In this document: positions 12,746 to 20,546 of the stretch, piece by piece
How the letters are laid out: every line of letters begins with the position of its first letter
How positions within the stretch are numbered: the stretch's first letter is position 1
From: a virus
Taxonomy: Duplodnaviria > Heunggongvirae > Uroviricota > Caudoviricetes
IMG/VR virus record: IMGVR_UViG_2737471819_000029
Location: 1-21,894 of that record
DNA length: 21,894 nucleotides
Direction: 5' to 3' (one strand)
Translations under genes and position numbers: made by a program
Notes under the pieces: model-generated
The model's input: the letters and a program-made list of their open reading frames with translations, nothing else
Databases searched by the model: none
What the model was told of the DNA's origin: nothing

Positions 12746-14161
12746 ATGGCTACGTGGCAACAGGGTATTAATTCTGGTGGTTTTCTGGCTGGCATCGGTA
12801 CGCAAAATGAGAATGCGCCAAAGGCAAGCGACATTAACGCAACGCTTGGTCTGATCCGCGAAAACAATGAACTGGCTCGATCAGGTGCAAATAACGTTGG
12901 TCTGACCGCGTTACGTGGTCTGGCTGGAGTTGCTGATATTTACAATCAGGAACAGCAACAGAAAGCGATTAGTGCGTTCAATAAGGTTCACGCTGATGCA
13001 TGGGCTTCTGGTGATCCATCGGGACTATTTAAGTTTGCCCAGGAAAATCCAGCGTTTGTTGCACAGGCACAACAGGCGTTTTCCGGTCTTAATGATCAGC
13101 AACGCAACGATATGGGCGATTTAGCCATGAGGGCTAACGTCGCTCTTTCTCAGGGACCGGAAGCCTACAGTAAATTCATTACTGACAACAAGGACAGGTT
13201 AAATCGCGTGGGGGCGAATGCTGACTGGATGATTCAGACAGGTATCCAGAATCCAGAGCAGCTATCACACATGCTGACTACTATGTCTCTCGGTGCGCTT
13301 GGACCAGAAAAGGCGTTTGCTGTTCAGGACAAGATGGCTGGTCGTGAAATTGACCGAGGCAAACTTGCAGAGACAATCCGCAGCAATCAGGCTGGAGAAG
13401 CACTTCAGGCGAGAGGGCAAAACCTTTCCTATCAGTCAGCAATGACTGGACACAATATCGCAGCACAACGCTTGGCTCTGGATCAGCAAGAGTTCGGGTT
13501 TAAGATGCAGCAAGCACAGGAAAAGGCTCAGCAGTTGATTAGCGAAGCACCTAAGCTGTCAGTAAACATGGAAAAAGGCATCGAGACGGCTGTAAACAAT
13601 GCTACAGCATCATCAAACTCAGCCAATTCTATGAGTGCGCTTGCTCAACAGTTCAGAGCAGAAAAACCAACGACAGGTTTGTTCGGTAACGCACAGAACA
13701 TGTTCGCAAAACTTACCGGAAGCGATACAACATTGCGTGATTTGCGCATCCGCCAAAATGCCCTTGTTAACAGTCAGGTTCTTAAATTCCTACCTCCCGG
13801 CCCCGCAACGGATAAAGACGTTGAGATCGTTCGGCAGGGTGCACCAACTGACATGGATAACCCTGAGACGGTCGCAAGATGGCTTGATGCGATGGCAAAC
13901 CTTGAGCGACGAAACGCGCAGTTTAATGAGTTTAAAGCCGAGTGGATGAGCGCGAATGGCAATCCAGGACAATCGCGTAATGGCGGTCAGATATTGGGGT
14001 TGGATGTTAAAAAAGGTGAATCATTGGGGAGTGCCGTTAAGCGGTATATGTCAATGAATACTGACGCAGCGCCAGCACAAGATTCGACACCTTCAGGAGA
14101 ACCACGGAATCAGGTTGGATCATATACCTCAAAATCAGGCATTCAATTTACGGTGGAATGA
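12746..14161 (+). CDS. Ejection protein, P22 gp20-like (471 aa)
   Basis: Same length as P22 gp20 and correct order; start codon preceded by AAGGGG SD. Confidence 0.75.
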
Positions 14162-15999
14162 TGAAAGTAACTGCAAACGGTAAGACATTTACCTTTCCTG
14201 ATGGTACGAGCACCGAAGATATTGGCACCGCCATTGATGAGTATTTTGCTGGTCAGGCTGTTCAGCAACAAACAGTTAATCAGGCCAATAATGCACCAAC
14301 ACGGGAAGAACCATCATTAATGCAACAAGCTGGCGATTGGCTCACTGGTGGTCAAAGTGCAGGGCAAATCGCAGAACAGGCTGGTCGTGGTCTGGTAAAC
14401 ATACCATTTGACGTATTGCAGGGTGGCGCAAGTCTGATTAATGCAATCAGTCAGGGGCTTGGTGGGCCAAAAGTATTGGATGATGTCTATCGTCCAGTCG
14501 ATCGACCGACAGACACTTATGCGCAAGCTGGAGAAACAATTGGCGGGTATTTAGTTCCAGGAGTTGGAACGGCAGGAAGCATGGCTATTGGATCACTGGC
14601 AGAGGCCGCAAATCAGAAAGGCGATTTCGCACAAAATGCAGCTAAAAATGCCGGAGTTAACCTTGCCGCTCAGGGTGTTCTTTCCGCAGCAGCAAAGGGA
14701 ATAGGGCGTGGAATAACGGCTATAAAAGGTGATATTGCGCCAGAAGTGGCGAAGAAAATTGCCACATCAGAATCGATGGGCGTGACACCAATGACATCTG
14801 ATGTTATCCCGCCGAAAAATGCTTTCACTCGTGGCCTTACTCAGGATGCCGAGGGTGCTTTGCTCGGGACAGGCTCAAAGCGAGCGGAGCAATATGCAAC
14901 GCGTAGTAAACTGGTAAGCAATTATTTTGACCGTTTTGGTGAGTATAACCCTGATGATGTGGTGAAATCTCTGACCACCACGTTAAGGGGGCGGAAGGAT
15001 GCCGCTGGCGCTGTTATCAATGACGTCACCAATAAAATGGGTAATGCCGCAGTTGATACCACAAATACCATGAATGCTCTGAATACAGCGATCGCAAGAC
15101 AGGAACGGCTTGGGACGTCTGCCAATCAAAGCCTGCTTACATCCTTGCGTAACCTACGTGAAGAATTAGCAAACCCTGCAACTGATTTGGATGTTACGTT
15201 TGATCTCTTGCGTCAGCACAGAACAGCATTTAGATCTAATGTTCAGGGAGATGCTATGGTCTTCCCCAACCAGGCAAAAGCAGCTACCAATATGGTAGAG
15301 AATGCAATGTCAAAAGACCTTCGTAACGCAGTTGCTAAAAACCTCGGTGCATCAGACGCAGCAAAATACCTTAAAGCAAATTCCGATTATGCAAACGTTT
15401 ATAATAAGGTGCTTAATAAAAACATTGCTAACAAGCTCAACAAGGCAAGCAGTGAAGCCAGTCCTGAACTTATAAATACCGTTGTATTAAGCAGAAAACC
15501 ATCTGACGTGAAACGAATCTGGAGCGCACTGGATGATAAAGGGAAAGATGCTATGCGTGCAGCTTACGTCAGCAAAATAGCGGAAAAGGCCGGTGACTCT
15601 CCAGCCAAGTTCATCACTGAAGTTAATAAGCTGAAATCTCAGTCAGGCGGTGAAATTTACAACACTATTTTTTCTGGGAAGCACATGAAAGAGCTTGATT
15701 CTCTTCATGAAGTTCTACAGCAAACAGCAAGGTCAGACACCGCAAATGTAGTAACTCAGACGGGGCAATCGCAAGCCAACAGGATAAGGACGATTGGCGC
15801 AACTGCGACTCTTGGCATATCAATGGGTCTTGAGGCTGGTTTCGGTGCAATGATGCGCTTGTATGAGTCTAAAGCAGCAAGAAACATGCTTCTCCGCCTT
15901 GCAAACGTCAAGCCTGGAACTCCGGCATATGAGCGAGCGTTAAATCAGGCTGCTAACGCCGTTCGCCCTCTCCTAACTAACGAAGCTACCAGGCAGTAG
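14158..15999 (+). CDS. Ejection protein, P22 gp16-like (613 aa)
   Basis: ATGA overlap with the preceding gene; length close to P22 gp16 (609 aa); last gene of the ejection-protein block. Confidence 0.75.
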
Positions 16000-16018: not shown

Positions 16019-16348
16019 CTATTTAATTCTCTTTTCAATGGCTGCAATTATTGCTTTTCCTGATGTTTCAGGAGATTTTGTAGCCATATAAGACGAAAAA
16101 ATCATGTCGGTCATTCTTTCATAACTTACTATTTCCCACTTAGCCAATGCATGGGACAGTTTGTAGTTGTCATCAGTTAGTGCCCTTATGGAATTTTTTA
16201 AGTGTTTATTCTCTTCTGTTAATCGCGCAATTTTTGTATCAATTTCATGTGAGCGATCTAATTCCTTAACCTGTTTCTTGAGGGCAGCTAACCCTGCATA
16301 TAGTACGCAACAGGATATCCCAAGAGCGAGTACGACTATTTCTAACAC
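16019..16348 (-). CDS. Hypothetical membrane-anchored coiled-coil protein (~110 aa; GTG start after a strong SD). The 181-aa track ORF is this gene plus a spurious 5' extension.
   Basis: On the minus strand AAGGAGG (complement of 16354-16360) lies 5 nt upstream of an in-frame GTG (16346-16348). Product begins VLEIVVLALGISCCVLYAGLAAL (one TM helix) followed by heptad-like charged sequence (KKQVKELDRSHEIDTKIARLTEENKHLKNSIRALTDDNYKL...). The upstream part of the long ORF looks like antisense of the neighbouring gene. Confidence 0.5.
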   Translation of the reverse strand: MLEIVVLALGISCCVLYAGLAALKKQVKELDRSHEIDTKIARLTEENKHLKNSIRALTDDNYKLSHALAKWEIVSYERMTDMIFSSYMATKSPETSGKAIIAAIEKRIK

Positions 16349-16378
16349 ACCAACCTCCTTAGTTTTTCGCAGGATACC

Positions 16379-16744
16379 ATGAAAAAAGTTAACATTGGAA
16401 ACGTACCAAAGATGCTCGTTCCGCTCTTTGAGAGCGGTACAATTGTGTTTTGTAGAGACTTTCCAGAATGGCAACGCCTGCATCAAAAACTTGGCGTTGA
16501 CGTGCATGACTCGGACGCCAACGGAGCGTCTCATACAATGAGTAGCGAGAATGGTGTTTTGCATGTGATAGGCGTGTTCAATGGCAAACTATCTACTATT
16601 GCCCATGAGTGCGCTCACATGGCATTCGATATCTGCTCAAGGGTAGGTGTTGATGTTGAACCAGGAAGAGCCAACGAGACTTACTGCTACTTAATGAGCA
16701 GGCTTGTTGAGTTCTGCGAGCGACATATCAAAAAGCCGGAGTGA
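16379..16744 (+). CDS. Hypothetical small HExxH-motif protein (121 aa), candidate zinc metallopeptidase-like protein
   Basis: Protein-like composition; contains IAHECAHMAFD (H-E-x-x-H); divergent from the membrane protein gene with only ~30 bp between start codons; weak SD (GGA). Confidence 0.5.
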   Translation: MKKVNIGNVPKMLVPLFESGTIVFCRDFPEWQRLHQKLGVDVHDSDANGASHTMSSENGVLHVIGVFNGKLSTIAHECAHMAFDICSRVGVDVEPGRANETYCYLMSRLVEFCERHIKKPE

Positions 16745-16751
16745 CCCGGCT
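16735..16751 (-). terminator. Putative intrinsic terminator for the small minus-strand gene (hairpin overlaps the 3' end of the HExxH gene)
   Basis: AGCCGG / CCGGCT 6-bp stem with 6-nt loop; on the minus strand it is followed by TTTTTGATA. Lies immediately downstream of the minus-strand stop at 16758. Confidence 0.45.
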
Positions 16752-16757
16752 TGATTA

Positions 16758-16937
16758 TTACTTTTTGCTGTCTGGAGTTCGCTTATCTAATACCCAGCCA
16801 TGACCTGGCTTTGTTGTTGGCGGAAGCCTTTCGTTGTCCTTGACGGTGGCAAAATTGTCTTTCTTACCGCCGCGCGGGCCAACTTCTTGGTATATTCCGC
16901 CGTTTTTTCCTGTGTTTTCACCTGGTTTTTTCGCCAT
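16758..16937 (-). CDS. Hypothetical small Lys/Gly-rich hydrophilic protein (59 aa from the second ATG)
   Basis: GAGG 7 nt upstream of the second in-frame ATG (MAKKPGENTGKNGGIYQEVGPRGGKK...); terminator hairpin immediately downstream; candidate -35 TTGACT (complement of 16997-17002) upstream. Confidence 0.45.
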   Translation of the reverse strand: MAKKPGENTGKNGGIYQEVGPRGGKKDNFATVKDNERLPPTTKPGHGWVLDKRTPDSKK

Positions 16938-17097
16938 GATATACCTCAACATACACCCGTTATTGGGCGATTAAATATTGATCTCATTTTATAAGTAGTC
17001 AATATGGCCCAGGTAAATGAAAAAATTAACCAATCGTCATCTGGGGTATCCGTAAAAACCCTTCAGTACATAACTACTGACAGATAACCAACGCAAA

Positions 17098-17122
17098 GAC
17101 CCAGCTTCGGCTGGGTTTTTTA
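17098..17122 (+). terminator. Strong rho-independent terminator inside a 330-bp non-coding gap (orphan on the + strand)
   Basis: ACCCAGC / GCTGGGT perfect 7-bp GC-rich stem with TTCG tetraloop followed by TTTTTT (17117-17122). Confidence 0.6.
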
Positions 17123-17267
17123 TGCCCAAAATTCACCGTAGCAACTAAGCGGTGATGGCCTTGATGGATAGCACTACGAAATTTTCGTAGTTCAAAAACC
17201 AAACAAATACCAACCGTCGCCATGCTGCGGCGATTCCTTGTATCTGGAGCAAATTAAATGACAGACA

Positions 17268-17762
17268 TTATCTAAAACAAGCAAACTCGCCATGATATTT
17301 TTCCCTGAATGCAATAGACATTAATTCTGCCAGCTCAATATCATCGGTATACCCAAGGAAAATAGACTTACCTTTTAGTTTGAACATAACTTTATATGTG
17401 TTTTTCCCTTTAAGAAGATGAACTCCTTTTATACCTGTATTGGATGATGAAACGCTGTTGGTTTTATTCTGACCTCTGGTTACTTCTCTTAGGTTTGAAA
17501 TTCTATTGTCATTTTTAACCCCGTTAATATGGTCAATTAACCCTTTAGGCCAGCATCCTTTCATATAAAACCAAGCAAGTCGGTGGCAAAGATACGATTT
17601 TCCATTAATCCGTATTGATAAGTAGTCGGCCTGTGAGTTCGTCTTAAATCCAGCAACCTTTCCGATACTGGAGCTACCAGAAGCTATCTTCCAAGTGAAG
17701 ACGCCTGTTTCTGGGTTGTAGTTGAGTGAAGAGGTTAATTCTTTATGAGTAATCATATTCAT
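17268..17762 (-). CDS. HNH endonuclease with C-terminal AP2-like DNA-binding domain (homing-endonuclease-like), 164 aa
   Basis: Motif LCHRLAWFYMKG...IDHINGVKNDNRISNLREVTRGQN (HNH_3-type H-N-N core) followed by GIKGVHLLKGKNTYKVMFKLKGKSIFLGYTDDIELAELMSIAFREKYHGEFA (AP2-like); AT-rich codon usage; start may be the second ATG at 17756. Confidence 0.8.
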   Translation of the reverse strand: MNMITHKELTSSLNYNPETGVFTWKIASGSSSIGKVAGFKTNSQADYLSIRINGKSYLCHRLAWFYMKGCWPKGLIDHINGVKNDNRISNLREVTRGQNKTNSVSSSNTGIKGVHLLKGKNTYKVMFKLKGKSIFLGYTDDIELAELMSIAFREKYHGEFACFR

Positions 17763-17782
17763 TCCTTAAATAGAGATTCACT

Positions 17783-19450
17783 ATGTCAAATATTGTGCCA
17801 AATGTTATAATTTCAATGCCAAGTCAACTATTTACGTTAGCCAGAAAATTCCAGGCCGCAAGCAATGGCAAGATATTCATTGGTAAGATAGATTCCGATC
17901 CTACGCTCCCACAGAATCAAGTGCAGGTTTATGTGGAAAATGAAGACGGCTCTCACGTTCCTGTTTCGCAACCAATCATCATTAACGCTGCTGGTTACCC
18001 TGTATATAATGGACAGATTGCCAAATTCGTTACCGTGCAAGGCCATTCTATGGCTGTTTATGATGCGTACGGTGCGCAGCAGTTTTATTTTCCGAATGTA
18101 CTGAAGTACGACCCGGATCAGCTTGAGCAGCGTCTTGCATCATCAATAGGTTCTTCCATGGTTGGCATTACCGATGGAAGGACAGTGCATGATTTTATAT
18201 CTGTTGATGACTATCAGAGAATTGGTGATATCCGTGGTTACGGGGCGACAAATGAAAACGTAAACCCTGTCAACATTGCCGTTGCCACAGGTGAGGCCAA
18301 TGGTCTACTGAAGGTGCCTAATGGAGTATGGAGCGGTAATTTTGAGTTAAAAAATAAAACTAGCATAACTGGTGAATCCATAACATCAACAGTTGTTAAC
18401 GTTCCTATAAACACGATCGGAATAAAGCCTGAGGGCTCTGACGTTAGAGGGATTACTATATCAAACATGAATCTCCAAGTTAACGGATCTGTTGCTGGCG
18501 GTCCTCCTGTTGGTAGCGGGGTCGGAATAGACATGTCTTTTTGCGGAAAGGCAGTTAACTGTGAGTTTAACAACCTTTATCTCGATTTCTTTGATATTGG
18601 TTACAACGCTGGATATGCTGGTTTTTCAAATATTTATAACAATATGAGGTGCAATAACAACCGAATCGGGATTAACCTATCCAGTAACGGAACAATTATT
18701 CAAAACGTATTCAATGGGTGTTATGTTGCAAACTGGACGGCTTATGCCGTGAAAGTTTCTGGCGCTAGCAACCAGATATTCAACGCGCTTAACATGGGAC
18801 ATAACGGGTCCGCCAATGCTTATTTCCTGCAGATAGATACGAACTCAAGAGGAATCATATTTAATCAACCTAACTTCGAAATGGACGTTGCAAACGGGAA
18901 AATTACAGCAGGAAGCCAGGCTATCGTGGTCGCCTCTAGTTCTGAGGTTACATTTAACTCCCCGACATTCAACAGGGTTAACGCTGCAGGGGCAAATGCC
19001 TACCTGTTCCGGGTTAGGGGTAACGCTGTAGTACGTATAAACGACCCTCAAATCTACAACGACGATGGCACAATAGGTCACCTAATTATCAGTGATGAAG
19101 CTGTTGTTTATCTCAATGATCCAAATCGAATATTCACAGTAATTACTATCCAAGGTAATGGGAGGCTAATACGTGTTGACGAGAAGATATCAAACTCCCC
19201 TAACTATACAAACATTCTTACTTTAAAATCTGGAGACATAATTAACTTTGGATTCTATGCAAGATATGCAATGGCGGTTCCAGATTTTCACTCCAATACT
19301 ATGCCATCACCATTCAAGTACGCAGTGAGCTTTGACACTTACCATAGCAGTGGAACTGCCATTGCTCGAGTGTATGATACAACCACAGGAAATGGAGTAT
19401 CAAACATCAATGTTACATGTTTCGTACAGGCGTGGAGAGAGGATAGATAA
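17783..19450 (+). CDS. Tailspike protein (555 aa): P22-type head-binding N-terminal domain fused to a divergent beta-helix-like receptor-binding domain
   Basis: N-terminal ~115 aa (…[49 protein letters not shown]…[17 protein letters not shown]…NVLKYDPDQ) match the P22 gp9 head-binding domain from memory; the remainder is Asn/Gly/Ser/Val/Ile-rich with repetitive beta-strand-like segments and unlike the P22 enzymatic domain I recall. Confidence 0.85.
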
Positions 19451-19477: not shown

Positions 19478-20546
19478 TTATACTGTAACTAAATTGTCTT
19501 CATTTCTATTGGTTTTTCTTTTTAATTTAAGAAAATGTATTTCAAAAAGATAGTATGATGCAATTGATACTATATATGCGATAGCAAACCCACATGCTAT
19601 TATCACAGCATTATTGTTTACCCCAAACAAGGAGGACATTTTGTTTGCAATTGAAAAACACAGCAAATGCCACATATACAAACCATAACTTATCTTTCCT
19701 GTAAATGTTAATGGCTTTAATGATAATGCTTTTGTTATTATTTGTTTTTTCCCTAGCACACTCCACTTGTAAATGAAAAAAATTGCAGATGAAAAAATCA
19801 TCCCAAACGCTGTAAACATATACCAGCATTTCCCAGCCCAATCTACAGGGTTCCAAAAAGCATTAAGACCAACAGAATTTATTCCATTAAGAACCAGCCC
19901 AACACCTGCTATAAAAGTTAAAAATCCTGATTCATATGCGTACTTCTCATCTTTTATCTTGGAAAACAGAGCGCCAAGAACTAACATGTCAATGCAACTG
20001 ATAAGAGTTACATTTACAATGTATGGGTTTCCATCAGTGATTTGAAATATAAAATATCTTGATATACTTGATGTTATTATTAGTATAATAAAAATCAGAT
20101 TCATATTCTTTTTGTTTATGAAAAATATGAATAGAGGCCAAAGCCAGTAAAATTGTTCTTCCACTGCAAGAGACCAAGTGTGCCCCAAAATTCCAGGTGT
20201 TGTAACATTTATTCCTATATAATAGTTATTGTAGATAAGTTATAAACCACAAATAACCATCCGTTGGTTTCCCAGTTGCAATTAGAAGAATAAAGTTAAC
20301 AAGTAGGTAAGCATAAAATAACGGGAATATTCTAAGAGATCTATTTATAAGAAATCGTTTAATATAGTTACTAAAACCAGAGTCTTTATCCTCGATAAGG
20401 ATTGAGGTAATTAAGAAACCAGATAAGCAAAAGAACAGCGGAACTCCAGACCAACCAAGAGAAAATCCTGAAACTTTGGCATGAAAAAGCATTACAATGA
20501 GCACCGCAATACCTCTCACACCATCTAAAGATTGTATATGTTTCAT
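19478..20546 (-). pseudogene. O-antigen acyltransferase (Acyl_transf_3 / Oac-like) interrupted by a single-base frameshift; two ORFs of 106 aa (20226-20546) and 236 aa (19478-20188, really open up to 20239)
   Basis: N-terminal ORF begins MKHIQSLDGVRGIAVLIVMLFHA...GVPLFFCLSGFLITS (typical family-3 acyltransferase start); second ORF contains WSLAVEEQFYWLWP (family signature). On the minus strand the frames read ...WFITYLQ-TAA and TAA-LIYNNYYIGINVTTPGILGHTWSLAVEEQFY; removing one base near + coordinate 20228 joins them into one ~350-aa ORF. Confidence 0.65.

What the first reader, a model, noticed from the sequence alone, without database searches (positions are those of the whole stretch)
17268..17762. 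Free-standing HNH-AP2 homing-type endonuclease inserted directly upstream of, and divergent from, the tailspike gene
The HNH motif plus AP2-like domain is the architecture of phage homing endonucleases. The gene is AT-rich relative to the structural genes and its start lies only ~20 bp from the tailspike start codon. This suggests a selfish-element insertion next to the most frequently exchanged gene of the phage, which could promote tailspike module exchange or act in phage-phage competition.
Basis: partly seen in the sequence, partly recalled or inferred. Interest (0 to 1): 0.5.

Follow-up and report, generated by a model that had tools for sequence, protein, structure and literature searches.

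The report
Homing endonuclease cassette in tailspike start
A small selfish nuclease gene has inserted into the first few codons of the tailspike (host-recognition) gene of a P22-like prophage and brought a foreign replacement start for that gene; near-identical copies sit in many otherwise different prophages of E. coli, Shigella and Salmonella, and a 92%-identical version in Providencia, so it is a real but fairly ordinary mobile element with an unusually clear footprint.

Summary
The ORF is real: 17268-17762 on the minus strand, 164 aa, though the true start is probably Met3 at 17756. It is an intact HNH_3 ("HNN") nuclease with an AP2-fold C-terminal domain. The AP2 domain shows up by fold and family alignment, not by Pfam on this sequence.

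Comparison with 33 occupied and about 10 empty sites redefines the insertion. It is not simply upstream of the tailspike. The old tailspike ribosome-binding site and first 4-5 codons survive at 17246-17272, fused to the 3' end of the HNH gene. The working tailspike restarts at 17783 with a new ribosome-binding site and a foreign first 47 codons (to 17923).

This ~650-bp cassette is about 99.5% identical in E. coli, Shigella and Salmonella, and 92% identical in Providencia. The DNA immediately on either side differs by about 12% between loci. Only 7 of about 1,004 E. coli genomes with this tailspike head carry it, and the foreign start never occurs without the HNH. HNH dN/dS is 0.06. Cassette GC matches Proteus/Providencia phages.

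Best reading: a free-standing homing endonuclease spreading by intronless homing. Nuclease activity, target site and homing are inferred, not shown. It is a new member of a known kind; interest is moderate.

The parts
17095..17120 (.). tANT-type terminator hairpin. This is native P22-like/HK620-like DNA that forms part of the left homology flank, not part of the cassette.
   Evidence: Inverted repeat I4. Terminator-like site. Annotated as tANT in HK620 at the homologous place.
17143..17212 (.). 70-bp polymorphic segment in the left flank, a relic of an antirepressor (ant) gene 3' end. It contains the palindrome CTACGAAATTTTCGTAG (17174-17190). It is not part of the cassette.
   Evidence: Absent from HK620 and from most occupied loci, present in L017-L020. 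83-89% identical to the ends of antirepressor genes of Klebsiella and Stx2 phages.
17246..17275 (+). Remnant of the resident tailspike translation start. It holds the native SD GGAG (17246-17249), ATG 17258 and codons M-T-D-I-(I), now a 5-codon mini-ORF ending at TAA 17273-17275. The junction with the cassette lies between 17270 and 17272.
   Evidence: Aligns base for base with the RBS and start of the HK620 and VE-F10 tailspike genes. The same junction is present with a Proteus-type RBS and start (GGAGAAAGCAATGTCAGATATTATC) in L021-L025 and L050.
17268..17762 (-). HNH(HNN)-AP2 endonuclease gene, 164 aa from ATG 17762 (probable true start ATG 17756, 162 aa). The HNH_3 domain is aa 57-99 (17466-17594). 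The AP2-fold domain is about aa 110-160 (17283-17435). The stop codon (17268-17270) lies within the tailspike remnant.
17763..17782 (.). 20-nt divergent spacer carried by the cassette. It holds the SD for the HNH gene (AAGGA, complement of 17763-17767) and a new, weaker SD for the tailspike (AGAGA, 17772-17776).
   Evidence: 100% identical in all enterobacterial occupied loci and 95% in Providencia. Unrelated to the native tailspike upstream sequence.
17783..17923 (+). Cassette-borne foreign 5' end of the tailspike gene (codons 1-47, [11 protein letters not shown]...QNQV). It replaces native nt ~13-141.
   Evidence: 50-62% nt identity to E. coli-type native alleles and ~72% to Proteus-type, against ~95% to E. 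coli type from nt 145 on. At least 98.6% identical among enterobacterial occupied loci. The last cassette-specific base is tailspike nt 141. Always linked to the HNH.
17789..17816 (-). Candidate sigma-70 promoter for the HNH gene (TTGAAA-16 nt-AATATT), embedded in the cassette-borne first 34 nt of the tailspike ORF.
   Evidence: Consensus scan only, 9/12 match, with 7 sites found against 4.5 expected in the region. Conserved in the Providencia clade. Weak evidence.
17783..19450 (+). Tailspike gene (555 aa). The head-binding domain is aa 1-113 (17783-18121), followed by a receptor-binding part.
   Evidence: Pfam Head_binding E=1.6e-64, phrog_8280 E=1.5e-95.

Best explanation
The gene is the nuclease of a free-standing homing-endonuclease cassette of about 650 bp (window ~17271-17923). 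The cassette has three parts: the HNH(HNN)-AP2 gene on the minus strand, a 20-nt spacer with ribosome-binding sites for both genes, and a foreign version of the first 47 codons of the tailspike gene. It sits inside the 5' end of the tailspike ORF of P22-like (Lederbergvirus) prophages. The resident RBS and first 4-5 codons are left behind as a dead stub, and the tailspike is re-headed by the cassette's own start. Proposed mechanism (inferred): when a cassette-bearing genome and a naive P22-like genome are in the same cell, the enzyme nicks or cuts the native tailspike 5' end. The cut is most likely near the insertion point at codon 5/6, or otherwise within nt 1-141. The break is repaired from the cassette-bearing copy. 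The left end pairs with the retained stub and upstream DNA. The right end must be resected through ~130 nt of non-homologous sequence until homology resumes at tailspike nt ~142 (CAGGTTTATGT...). The HNH gene and the foreign 47 codons are therefore copied in together (intronless homing with co-conversion). Carriers are immune because the native site is split at the stub and diverged in the new gene head. Composition and nearest alleles suggest the cassette arose in a Proteus/Providencia-type phage and recently spread through E. coli, Shigella and Salmonella prophages.
For: Shown: the HNH_3 domain and an intact D-H...N...N catalytic set. The closest solved structure is the homing nickase I-HmuI, by sequence (E=8e-4) and by fold (prob 1.0). 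There is an AP2-fold DNA-binding domain. The motif set HRLAW/WP/DH/DNR/NLRE is the same as in the dispersed HNN-AP2 endonucleases of Xanthomonas phages (PMC2248197). Presence/absence polymorphism: HNH in 7 of 5,426 E. coli genomes against 1,004 genomes with the same head-binding domain. The near-isogenic pair HK620 (empty) and Shigella L031 (occupied) has a left flank 97.7% identical over 853 nt up to the junction, tailspike nt 1-144 at 50-60%, nt 145-240 at 90-94%, and nt 241-528 at 98-100%. The junction is identical in two unrelated flank types, E. coli-type and Proteus-type RBS+start. Diversity among 15 enterobacterial loci is 0.55% in the 656-nt cassette, against 11.7% in the 60 nt to the left and 12.0% in the 200 nt to the right, with 13 left and 16 right haplotypes. 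Right flanks follow different native haplotypes from nt ~142-233 on, for example L032 = Sf101 and L031 = HK620. Upstream neighbours and receptor-binding domains differ between loci. The foreign tailspike start always has the HNH in front of it: 8/8 E. coli places, 9/9 IMG/VR contigs and 2/2 metagenome contigs. HNH dN/dS is 0.06 at dS 0.37 between the enterobacterial and Providencia clades. GC is 0.37-0.38 in the cassette against 0.49 in the window's structural genes and 0.39-0.42 in Proteus/Providencia phage DNA. The cassette's tailspike head is closest to Proteus-type alleles (86% aa, 72% nt). The general mechanism is established for T4 seg/mob genes (PMC2988022, PMC2790892), and HEGs are known to sit at recombination boundaries (PMC10448857).
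Against: No enzymology has been done: cleavage, target site and immunity are all inferred. P22-like phages are highly mosaic, so ordinary homologous recombination plus selection could move a short segment into many backgrounds without any nuclease action. Many occupied loci were retrieved by exact look-up of four HNH protein variants, which biases the HNH part towards uniformity. The tailspike nt 1-141 part was not used for retrieval and is equally uniform, and no homolog between 52% and 90% identity exists in the 5.8-billion-protein search. Occupancy is low (~0.7%) for an efficient drive. No cultured phage in the 50,697-record collection carries it. The gene is antisense to the late operon and its promoter is only a weak consensus match. 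Fixed cassette-versus-native differences are only loosely clustered, so the target cannot be pinpointed. Transfer between the two flank types needs a left crossover within a 15-nt stub (13/15 identical).
Confidence: 0.7

Rival explanations
1. Passive passenger. The HNH gene is a moron-like insertion, possibly once active, that is now carried into different P22-like backgrounds only by the general, nuclease-independent homologous recombination that makes these phages mosaic. The sharp edges simply mark where homology to the foreign segment begins.
For: P22-like phages exchange tailspike and immI modules constantly, and upstream genes and receptor-binding domains differ in every locus. The right boundary at nt ~142 coincides with the first conserved stretch, so any recombination would end there. 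Occupancy is low.
Against: dN/dS of 0.06 and invariant catalytic residues show the protein is maintained by selection. There is a 20-fold diversity drop exactly over the cassette, with crossovers within ~20 nt on the right and within ~16 nt on the left in many independent backgrounds. The same junction occurs in two flank types that share only a 15-nt stub, which is hard to reach without a break at that spot.
Confidence: 0.15
2. Prophage-encoded exclusion weapon. The nuclease is expressed from the lysogen, from its own promoter and antisense to the silent late operon. Its selected role is to cut the tailspike gene of superinfecting P22-like phages and so protect the host and resident prophage. 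Spread of the gene is a by-product.
For: The gene lies in the region where P22-like prophages keep lysogen-expressed genes (immI, sieA, gtr/oac) and is oriented against the late operon. A promoter-like site faces it from inside the cassette. All known copies are in prophages, none in cultured lytic stocks. The only PADLOC hit is the generic 'homing endonuclease' model (E=1.2e-6).
Against: No expression data exist. No partner genes of any known defence system are present, and there is no specific PADLOC system hit. Marker exclusion by HEGs already produces this effect, so this is a shift of emphasis rather than a separate mechanism. The element's footprint (co-converted gene head, stub) is that of a homing element.
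Confidence: 0.1
3. Not a mobile nuclease at all. It would instead be either a terminase-associated HNH needed for DNA packaging (HK97 gp74 type) or an AP2-type DNA-binding regulator of tailspike expression.
For: HNH proteins next to terminases act in packaging in some phages (own knowledge). AP2 domains are DNA-binding domains.
Against: The gene is ~15 kb from the packaging genes in these genomes (one search shows terminase and portal far upstream). About 99% of related prophages lack it. It belongs to the HNH_3/HNN-AP2 type that is dispersed as free-standing genes. The catalytic residues are conserved, which a pure regulator would not need.
Confidence: 0.03

Closest known systems
I-HmuI (intron-encoded HNH homing nickase of Bacillus phage SPO1; PDB 1U3E)
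   Same: It is the best solved-structure match by sequence (E=8e-4, aa 53-122) and by fold (Foldseek prob 1.0). It has the same D-H...N...N beta-beta-alpha-metal core without zinc-binding cysteines.
   Different: I-HmuI is encoded inside a group I intron and uses NUMOD/helix-turn-helix DNA-binding modules. The protein here is free-standing, with no intron, and has an AP2-fold C-terminal domain. Identity is about 25%.
HNN-AP2 / HNH-AP2 free-standing endonucleases (Xanthomonas phages Xp10/OP1/Xop411 group I; ICP1 'IPA-HNH'; the family from which plant AP2 domains are thought to derive)
   Same: It has the same two-domain architecture and the same motif boxes HRLAW, WP, DH, DNR, NLRE. Homologs are scattered singly through many phage genomes.
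   Different: Here the AP2 domain is too diverged for Pfam. The nearest relatives are at most 52% identical. No member of that family has been reported at the tailspike start of P22-like phages in the literature searched.
T4 free-standing homing endonucleases SegF, SegG and MobE (intronless homing, marker exclusion, co-conversion of flanks)
   Same: It is a free-standing nuclease gene next to an essential gene, with presence/absence polymorphism between relatives, divergent sequence in the carrier's copy of the neighbouring gene, and flanking DNA co-inherited with the nuclease gene (PMC2988022, PMC2790892).
   Different: The T4 elements sit between intact genes, and activity and target sites are known. 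Here the element interrupts the ORF after codon 4-5 and carries a replacement gene head, it lives in temperate phages and prophages, and nothing has been tested biochemically.
mobE insertion that splits nrdA in Aeromonas phage Aeh1 ('genes in pieces'; own knowledge, Friedrich et al. 2007)
   Same: An HNH homing endonuclease gene sits inside a protein-coding gene without an intron or intein, with gene function preserved.
   Different: In Aeh1 the host gene is cut into two expressed halves that reassemble. Here only a 5-codon stub is left and a complete gene is restored by a foreign 5' end.

Membership tests
HNH_3 (HNN-type beta-beta-alpha-metal nucleases, I-HmuI-like) | Pfam PF13392 match above the gathering score | tested here: met
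   55.5 bits against a cut-off of 24.8, E=4.3e-15, aa 57-99.
HNH_3 (HNN-type beta-beta-alpha-metal nucleases, I-HmuI-like) | Catalytic Asp-His and the two Asn residues of the motif present | tested here: met
   D77, H78, N86, N90 and N102 are invariant in a 53-sequence alignment. They align with DH...N...N of I-HmuI.
HNH_3 (HNN-type beta-beta-alpha-metal nucleases, I-HmuI-like) | Metal-dependent DNA nicking or cleavage | not testable with these tools
   Needs purified protein.
HNH(HNN)-AP2 endonucleases | C-terminal AP2 domain detectable by the Pfam AP2 model (PF00847) | tested here: not met
   No AP2 hit for the whole protein or for the isolated C-terminal 60 aa even at E<=10.
HNH(HNN)-AP2 endonucleases | C-terminal domain homologous to, and folded like, AP2 (three-stranded sheet packed on a helix) | tested here: met
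   The C-terminal block aligns with homologs of which 37/53 hit Pfam AP2. The model has strands 114-117, 122-129 and 132-139 plus helix 142-156 at pLDDT >90. It matches 1gcc (rmsd 1.6 A/55, TM 0.70), 7et5 (2.1 A/59) and 7wq5.
HNH(HNN)-AP2 endonucleases | Motif boxes HRLAW, WP, DH, DNR, NLRE and no CxxC zinc dyads | tested here: met
   HRLAWFY, WP, IDHIN, DNR and NLRE are all present and match the description in PMC2248197.
Free-standing homing endonuclease genes (intronless homing) | Own ORF, not inside an intron or intein | tested here: met
   It is a separate minus-strand ORF between the tailspike stub and the new tailspike start.
Free-standing homing endonuclease genes (intronless homing) | Present or absent at the same site in closely related genomes | tested here: met
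   7 of ~1,004 E. coli genomes carry it. HK620 and L031 form a near-isogenic pair.
Free-standing homing endonuclease genes (intronless homing) | The carrier's copy of the presumed target differs from the HEG-less allele (immunity) | tested here: inconclusive
   Tailspike nt 1-141 is 50-62% identical to native alleles and the native start is truncated at the junction. The target site itself is unknown.
Free-standing homing endonuclease genes (intronless homing) | Nuclease-dependent unidirectional gene conversion with co-conversion of flanks | not testable with these tools
   The population pattern is compatible. Phage crosses with a catalytic mutant are required.
Terminase-associated packaging HNH (HK97 gp74 type) | Encoded next to the terminase genes and universally present in the phage group | tested here: not met
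   It lies at the tailspike, ~15 kb from terminase and portal, and is absent from ~99% of related prophages.
Known anti-phage defence systems (PADLOC) | Match to a defence-system protein model with its partner genes nearby | tested here: not met
   The only hit is the generic 'HEase' homing endonuclease model, E=1.2e-6. Neighbours are phage structural and immI genes.

The most novel reading that the evidence does not exclude
The cassette is a self-sufficient 'gene-head replacement' homing element. It invades the coding sequence of an essential virion gene at codon 5 and keeps that gene alive by carrying its own ribosome-binding site, start codon and first 47 codons. These codons also hold the nuclease's promoter and the cleavage-resistant target variant. 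Its target is the head-binding N-terminus shared by all P22-like tailspikes, so it can jump between phages of different bacterial families (Morganellaceae to Enterobacteriaceae). Expressed from prophages, it would destroy or convert the tailspike gene of superinfecting relatives, creating a recombination hotspot at the boundary of the host-range module.
Probability: 0.3. Interest if true: 0.65.

Novelty: new member of a known kind. Interest (0 to 1): 0.45.

Why it matters
The tailspike is the host-range determinant of P22-like phages and their most frequently exchanged module. A nuclease that breaks DNA at the start of that gene would give a concrete mechanism for why recombination joints cluster there. 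It would also be a natural, easily testable example of intronless homing in temperate phages, where most knowledge comes from lytic T4-like phages. The footprint is clean: a stub of the old gene start, a foreign gene head, a 20-fold diversity drop, and a near-isogenic empty phage (HK620) that is a laboratory model. This makes the system directly testable. Practically, annotators should recognise the 5-codon stub and the chimeric tailspike N-terminus. People engineering P22/HK620/Sf6-type tailspikes should know that some prophages may cut the native 5' end.

Tried and rejected
1. Pfam AP2 on this protein gave no hit even at E<=10. The AP2 call therefore rests on the family alignment and the fold.
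2. NCBIfam gave no hit for the HNH or the tailspike.
3. I looked for a near-isogenic empty site using the window's receptor-binding domain (18130-19450) in E. coli complete genomes and found no match. HK620 against L031 was used instead.
4. The GTDB species-representative scan found only distant homologs (37-42%) in unrelated bacteria and was uninformative.
5. I first read the first 144 nt of the tailspike as 'recoded' de novo for immunity. I rejected that. It is a natural third-lineage allele closest to Proteus-type phages, with mostly synonymous divergence.
6. The two copies in E. coli ET479 looked like possible evidence of homing between co-resident prophages. I rejected that too, because they belong to a tandem duplicate of the same prophage with identical protein accessions.
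7. The short (62-80 aa) members of the HNH cluster looked like possible decaying copies. The one examined is cut by an insertion that looks like IS1, not by gradual decay.
8. The 70-bp window 'insert' at 17143-17212 looked like a possible second small mobile element. It is a polymorphic relic of an antirepressor gene end.
9. The nearest ~50% relatives (P0040, P0018) were checked for a tailspike association. There is none: they sit in lysis or nin-region contexts.
10. The literature search for a previous description of an HNH at the P22-like tailspike start found none. HNH genes reported in P22-like phages are at other sites: epsilon34 gene 31, and SEN22 between terminase and portal.
11. Packaging-HNH and defence-system readings were considered and rejected.
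Full report
**1. The observation**

The window is the right end of a P22-like (Lederbergvirus) prophage. In order it holds:
- a gp16-type ejection protein gene (14158-15999);
- hkcB/hkcC/orf59a-like small genes and a decayed immI region, as in phage HK620;
- the ORF in question (17268-17762, minus strand);
- a tailspike gene (17783-19450; Pfam Head_binding aa 1-113, E=1.6e-64);
- a disrupted acyltransferase;
- an IntS-type integrase.

The ORF is a genuine gene. It hits Pfam HNH_3 at E=4.3e-15 and PHROG 99 'HNH endonuclease' at E=6e-61. Its first ATG is 20 nt from the tailspike ATG. The Shine-Dalgarno AAGGA abuts that ATG and lies 6 nt before the second ATG (17756). The true product is therefore probably 162 aa, as RefSeq annotates it elsewhere. 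GC is 0.368 against 0.487 for the structural genes.

**2. The protein**

In an alignment with 52 homologs, H60, R61, D77, H78, N86, N90, R92 and N102 are invariant. These residues are the D-H...N...N catalytic set of the 'HNN' branch of HNH nucleases. The same motif boxes (HRLAW, WP, DH, DNR, NLRE) are described for the dispersed HNN-AP2 endonucleases of Xanthomonas phages (PMC2248197).

The only solved structure found by sequence is the homing nickase I-HmuI (1U3E, E=8e-4).

Pfam AP2 does not hit this sequence even at E<=10, but two lines of evidence support an AP2 domain:
- 37 of the 53 aligned homologs hit AP2 in the homologous C-terminal block.
- An AlphaFold model (pLDDT 92.8) shows a three-stranded sheet plus helix. 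It superposes on AtERF1 (1gcc, 1.6 A over 55 residues, TM 0.70) and TEM1 (7et5, 2.1 A). The N-terminal two-thirds match I-HmuI (prob 1.0).

So the HNH-AP2 architecture is right, with a diverged AP2 domain.

Between the enterobacterial and Providencia versions of the gene, dN/dS is 0.06 at dS 0.37. The protein is therefore under strong purifying selection.

**3. Where exactly the insertion lies**

Phage HK620 and E. coli VE-F10 match the window on both sides but lack the gene. Base-level alignments show three things.

- Left side: native sequence runs through the tANT terminator, the native tailspike SD (GGAG, 17246-17249), the native ATG (17258) and codons Thr-Asp-Ile. It then passes directly into the 3' end of the HNH gene. 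The HNH stop codon (17268-17270) lies in this remnant. The remnant now reads as a 5-codon mini-ORF (MTDII*).
- Right side: the working tailspike gene starts at 17783 behind an unrelated 20-nt spacer.
- The first 141-144 nt of the working tailspike are only 50-62% identical to E. coli-type native alleles. Identity then jumps to ~95% from CAGGTTTATGT onward.

The inserted unit is therefore ~17271-17923: the HNH gene, the spacer, and a foreign first 47 codons. It replaces native nt ~13-141 of the tailspike.

The foreign head is not a scrambled copy. It is closest to the tailspike heads of Proteus-type Lederbergviruses (86% aa, ~72% nt), and those phages have no HNH.

**4. Distribution and linkage**

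- In 5,426 complete E. coli genomes, the HNH gene and the foreign tailspike head occur in exactly the same 7 genomes (8 places). The extra place is a tandem duplicate of one prophage.
- The conserved part of the head-binding domain occurs in 1,004 genomes, so occupancy is about 0.7%.
- No cultured phage in 50,697 records has a close homolog.
- In the 5.8-billion-protein collection there is a single >=90% cluster of 74 sequences, from E. coli, Shigella sonnei, Salmonella enterica and Providencia alcalifaciens. Nothing lies between 90% and 52% identity.
- Searching only for the foreign tailspike start finds 9 IMG/VR contigs and 2 metagenome contigs, and all have the HNH in front.

**5. Footprint across 33 occupied loci**

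The loci are L002-L005, L015-L034 and L042-L050. The HNH always abuts a head-binding tailspike, but everything else varies:
- Upstream neighbours include several antirepressor types, Arc/Mnt, P63C, and gp16 directly.
- Receptor-binding domains include P22-type, HK620-type and others (one, L043, looks Sf6-type from memory; not tested).

Among 15 enterobacterial loci with full flanks, mean pairwise difference is:

| Segment | Mean pairwise difference |
|---|---|
| 60 nt left of the cassette | 11.7% |
| 656-nt cassette | 0.55% |
| 200 nt right of the cassette | 12.0% |

There are 13 left and 16 right haplotypes.

The last cassette-specific base is tailspike nt 141 in every locus. Beyond it, each locus follows a different native haplotype. 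L032 is Sf101-like from nt <158. L031 becomes identical to HK620 from nt ~233.

HK620 and L031 form a near-isogenic pair:

| Region | Identity |
|---|---|
| Left flank, 853 nt up to the junction | 97.7% |
| Tailspike nt 1-144 | 50-60% |
| Tailspike nt 145-240 | 90-94% |
| Tailspike nt 241-528 | 98-100% |

This is what a conversion tract with a variable right end looks like.

On the left, polymorphisms are retained to within 16 nt of the junction.

In Providencia and in L021, the same cassette is joined at the same position to a Proteus-type stub, GGAGAAAGCAATGTCAGATATTATC|TAAA (HNH 92% and 98.6% identical respectively). That stub is the native RBS and first five codons of that lineage. Two Providencia loci show the same break: 99.3% in nt 1-144, then 87.5%.

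One caveat applies. Many loci were fetched by exact look-up of four HNH protein variants, which favours uniform HNH sequences. The tailspike-head part was not used for retrieval and is just as uniform.

**6. Interpretation**

Shown:
- an intact, selected HNN-AP2 nuclease gene;
- a discrete ~650-bp unit with fixed junctions;
- presence/absence polymorphism;
- complete linkage of nuclease and foreign gene head;
- very recent spread into many backgrounds across three enterobacterial genera, with an older, 92%-identical branch in Providencia;
- composition (GC 0.37-0.38) and nearest alleles pointing to a Proteus/Providencia-type phage origin.

Inferred: the unit spreads by intronless homing, as established for T4 SegF/SegG/MobE (PMC2988022, PMC2790892).
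- The enzyme breaks the native tailspike 5' end.
- The break is repaired from a carrier genome. The stub and upstream DNA serve as the left homology arm, and homology resumes at nt ~142 on the right.
- The nuclease gene and the 47 foreign codons are therefore co-converted.
- Carriers are immune because the native site is split and the new head is diverged.

A cut near codon 5/6 best explains three things: the identical junction in two flank types, the minimal left co-conversion, and the cluster of cassette-specific changes at codons 3-5 (D3N, I/T5V). A second cluster at codons 38-47 (T38S, E44Q, I47V) leaves a more distal site possible.

A minus-strand promoter-like site (TTGAAA-16-AATATT, 17816-17789) lies in the cassette-borne part of the tailspike ORF and could drive the nuclease gene. 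This is only a consensus match.

The finding fits the observation that nuclease genes sit at boundaries of genetic exchange between phages (PMC10448857).

**7. Rivals**

- A purely passive passenger moved by ordinary mosaic recombination cannot be excluded without experiments. It fits poorly with purifying selection on the nuclease, with crossovers crowded within ~20 nt of both edges in many backgrounds, and with the identical junction in flanks that share only a 15-nt stub.
- A prophage-expressed exclusion role is compatible with the location and orientation. It overlaps with HEG marker exclusion. PADLOC gives only the generic homing-endonuclease model.
- Packaging-HNH or regulator roles are rejected on position, rarity and conserved catalytic residues.

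**8. Novelty and score**

Free-standing HNH-AP2 homing endonucleases and intronless homing are well known, and this is a new member. I found no earlier description of one at the P22-like tailspike start.

The unusual detail is that the element lies inside the ORF and restores it with a portable gene head, leaving a 5-codon stub. The nearest analogue I know is the mobE insertion that splits nrdA in phage Aeh1 (own knowledge).

Interest is moderate (0.45). The mechanism is expected. What adds value is the clean footprint, the location at the host-range gene, the spread across bacterial families, and the availability of HK620 as an empty-site laboratory phage, which together make it a good test system.

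Noticed in passing
window 19478-20546 (minus strand): Two adjacent ORFs (106 aa and 236 aa) match the N- and C-terminal parts of Pfam Acyl_transf_3. This looks like a frameshifted or nonsense-disrupted O-antigen acetyltransferase (lysogenic-conversion gene). It is the most AT-rich part of the window, at GC 0.31-0.34.
   Followed up: no
window 17143-17212: A 70-bp segment is present here and in L017-L020 but absent from HK620 and most other loci. It is flanked by an imperfect direct repeat (CACCGTAGC / AACCGTCGC) and contains the 17-nt palindrome CTACGAAATTTTCGTAG (17174-17190). It is 83-89% identical to the 3' ends of antirepressor genes of Klebsiella and Stx2 phages, so it is a relic of the lost ant gene.
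   Followed up: partly
window 16340-17265: The immI region (mnt/arc/ant) is decayed exactly as in phage HK620 (96.5% identity over 807 nt). Only terminators and small ORFs remain, whereas other cassette-bearing prophages keep full Arc/Mnt/antirepressor sets.
   Followed up: partly
window 18130-19450: The receptor-binding part of this 555-aa tailspike has no megablast match in 5,426 complete E. coli genomes. The whole protein best matches phrog_8280, 'tail spike protein with colanic acid degradation activity' (E=1.5e-95). It is a rare specificity module of unknown target.
   Followed up: no
window 17258-17275: The leftover native tailspike SD and start now form a 5-codon mini-ORF (MTDII-stop) with a strong ribosome-binding site, ~500 nt upstream of the real tailspike start. 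The new tailspike SD (AGAGA) is weaker than the native GGAG. The effect on tailspike expression is unknown.
   Followed up: no
L051 2501-2911 and L052 (E. coli/Shigella-type draft contigs): In this lineage the HNH gene is interrupted right after the catalytic DHING (codon ~79) by foreign DNA beginning GGTAATGACTCCAACTTATTGATAGTG. I recognise this from memory as an IS1 end (not tested). The contig ends inside it.
   Followed up: partly
L053/L054 (E. coli ET479, NZ_CP100950.1 1440558-1520558): The cassette-bearing P22-like prophage is present as two tandem copies at argW with identical protein accessions. Many genes are annotated as frameshifted, which suggests a tandem double lysogen, assembly errors, or both. 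The same prophage also carries a second, unrelated 121-aa HNH endonuclease gene in the early-left (ea) region.
   Followed up: partly
phage collection: One phage record has a 60-80% identical tblastn match to the HNH protein. All 3,150 others are below 60%. That record was not among the rows listed and was not identified. It could be the closest cultured-phage relative.
   Followed up: no
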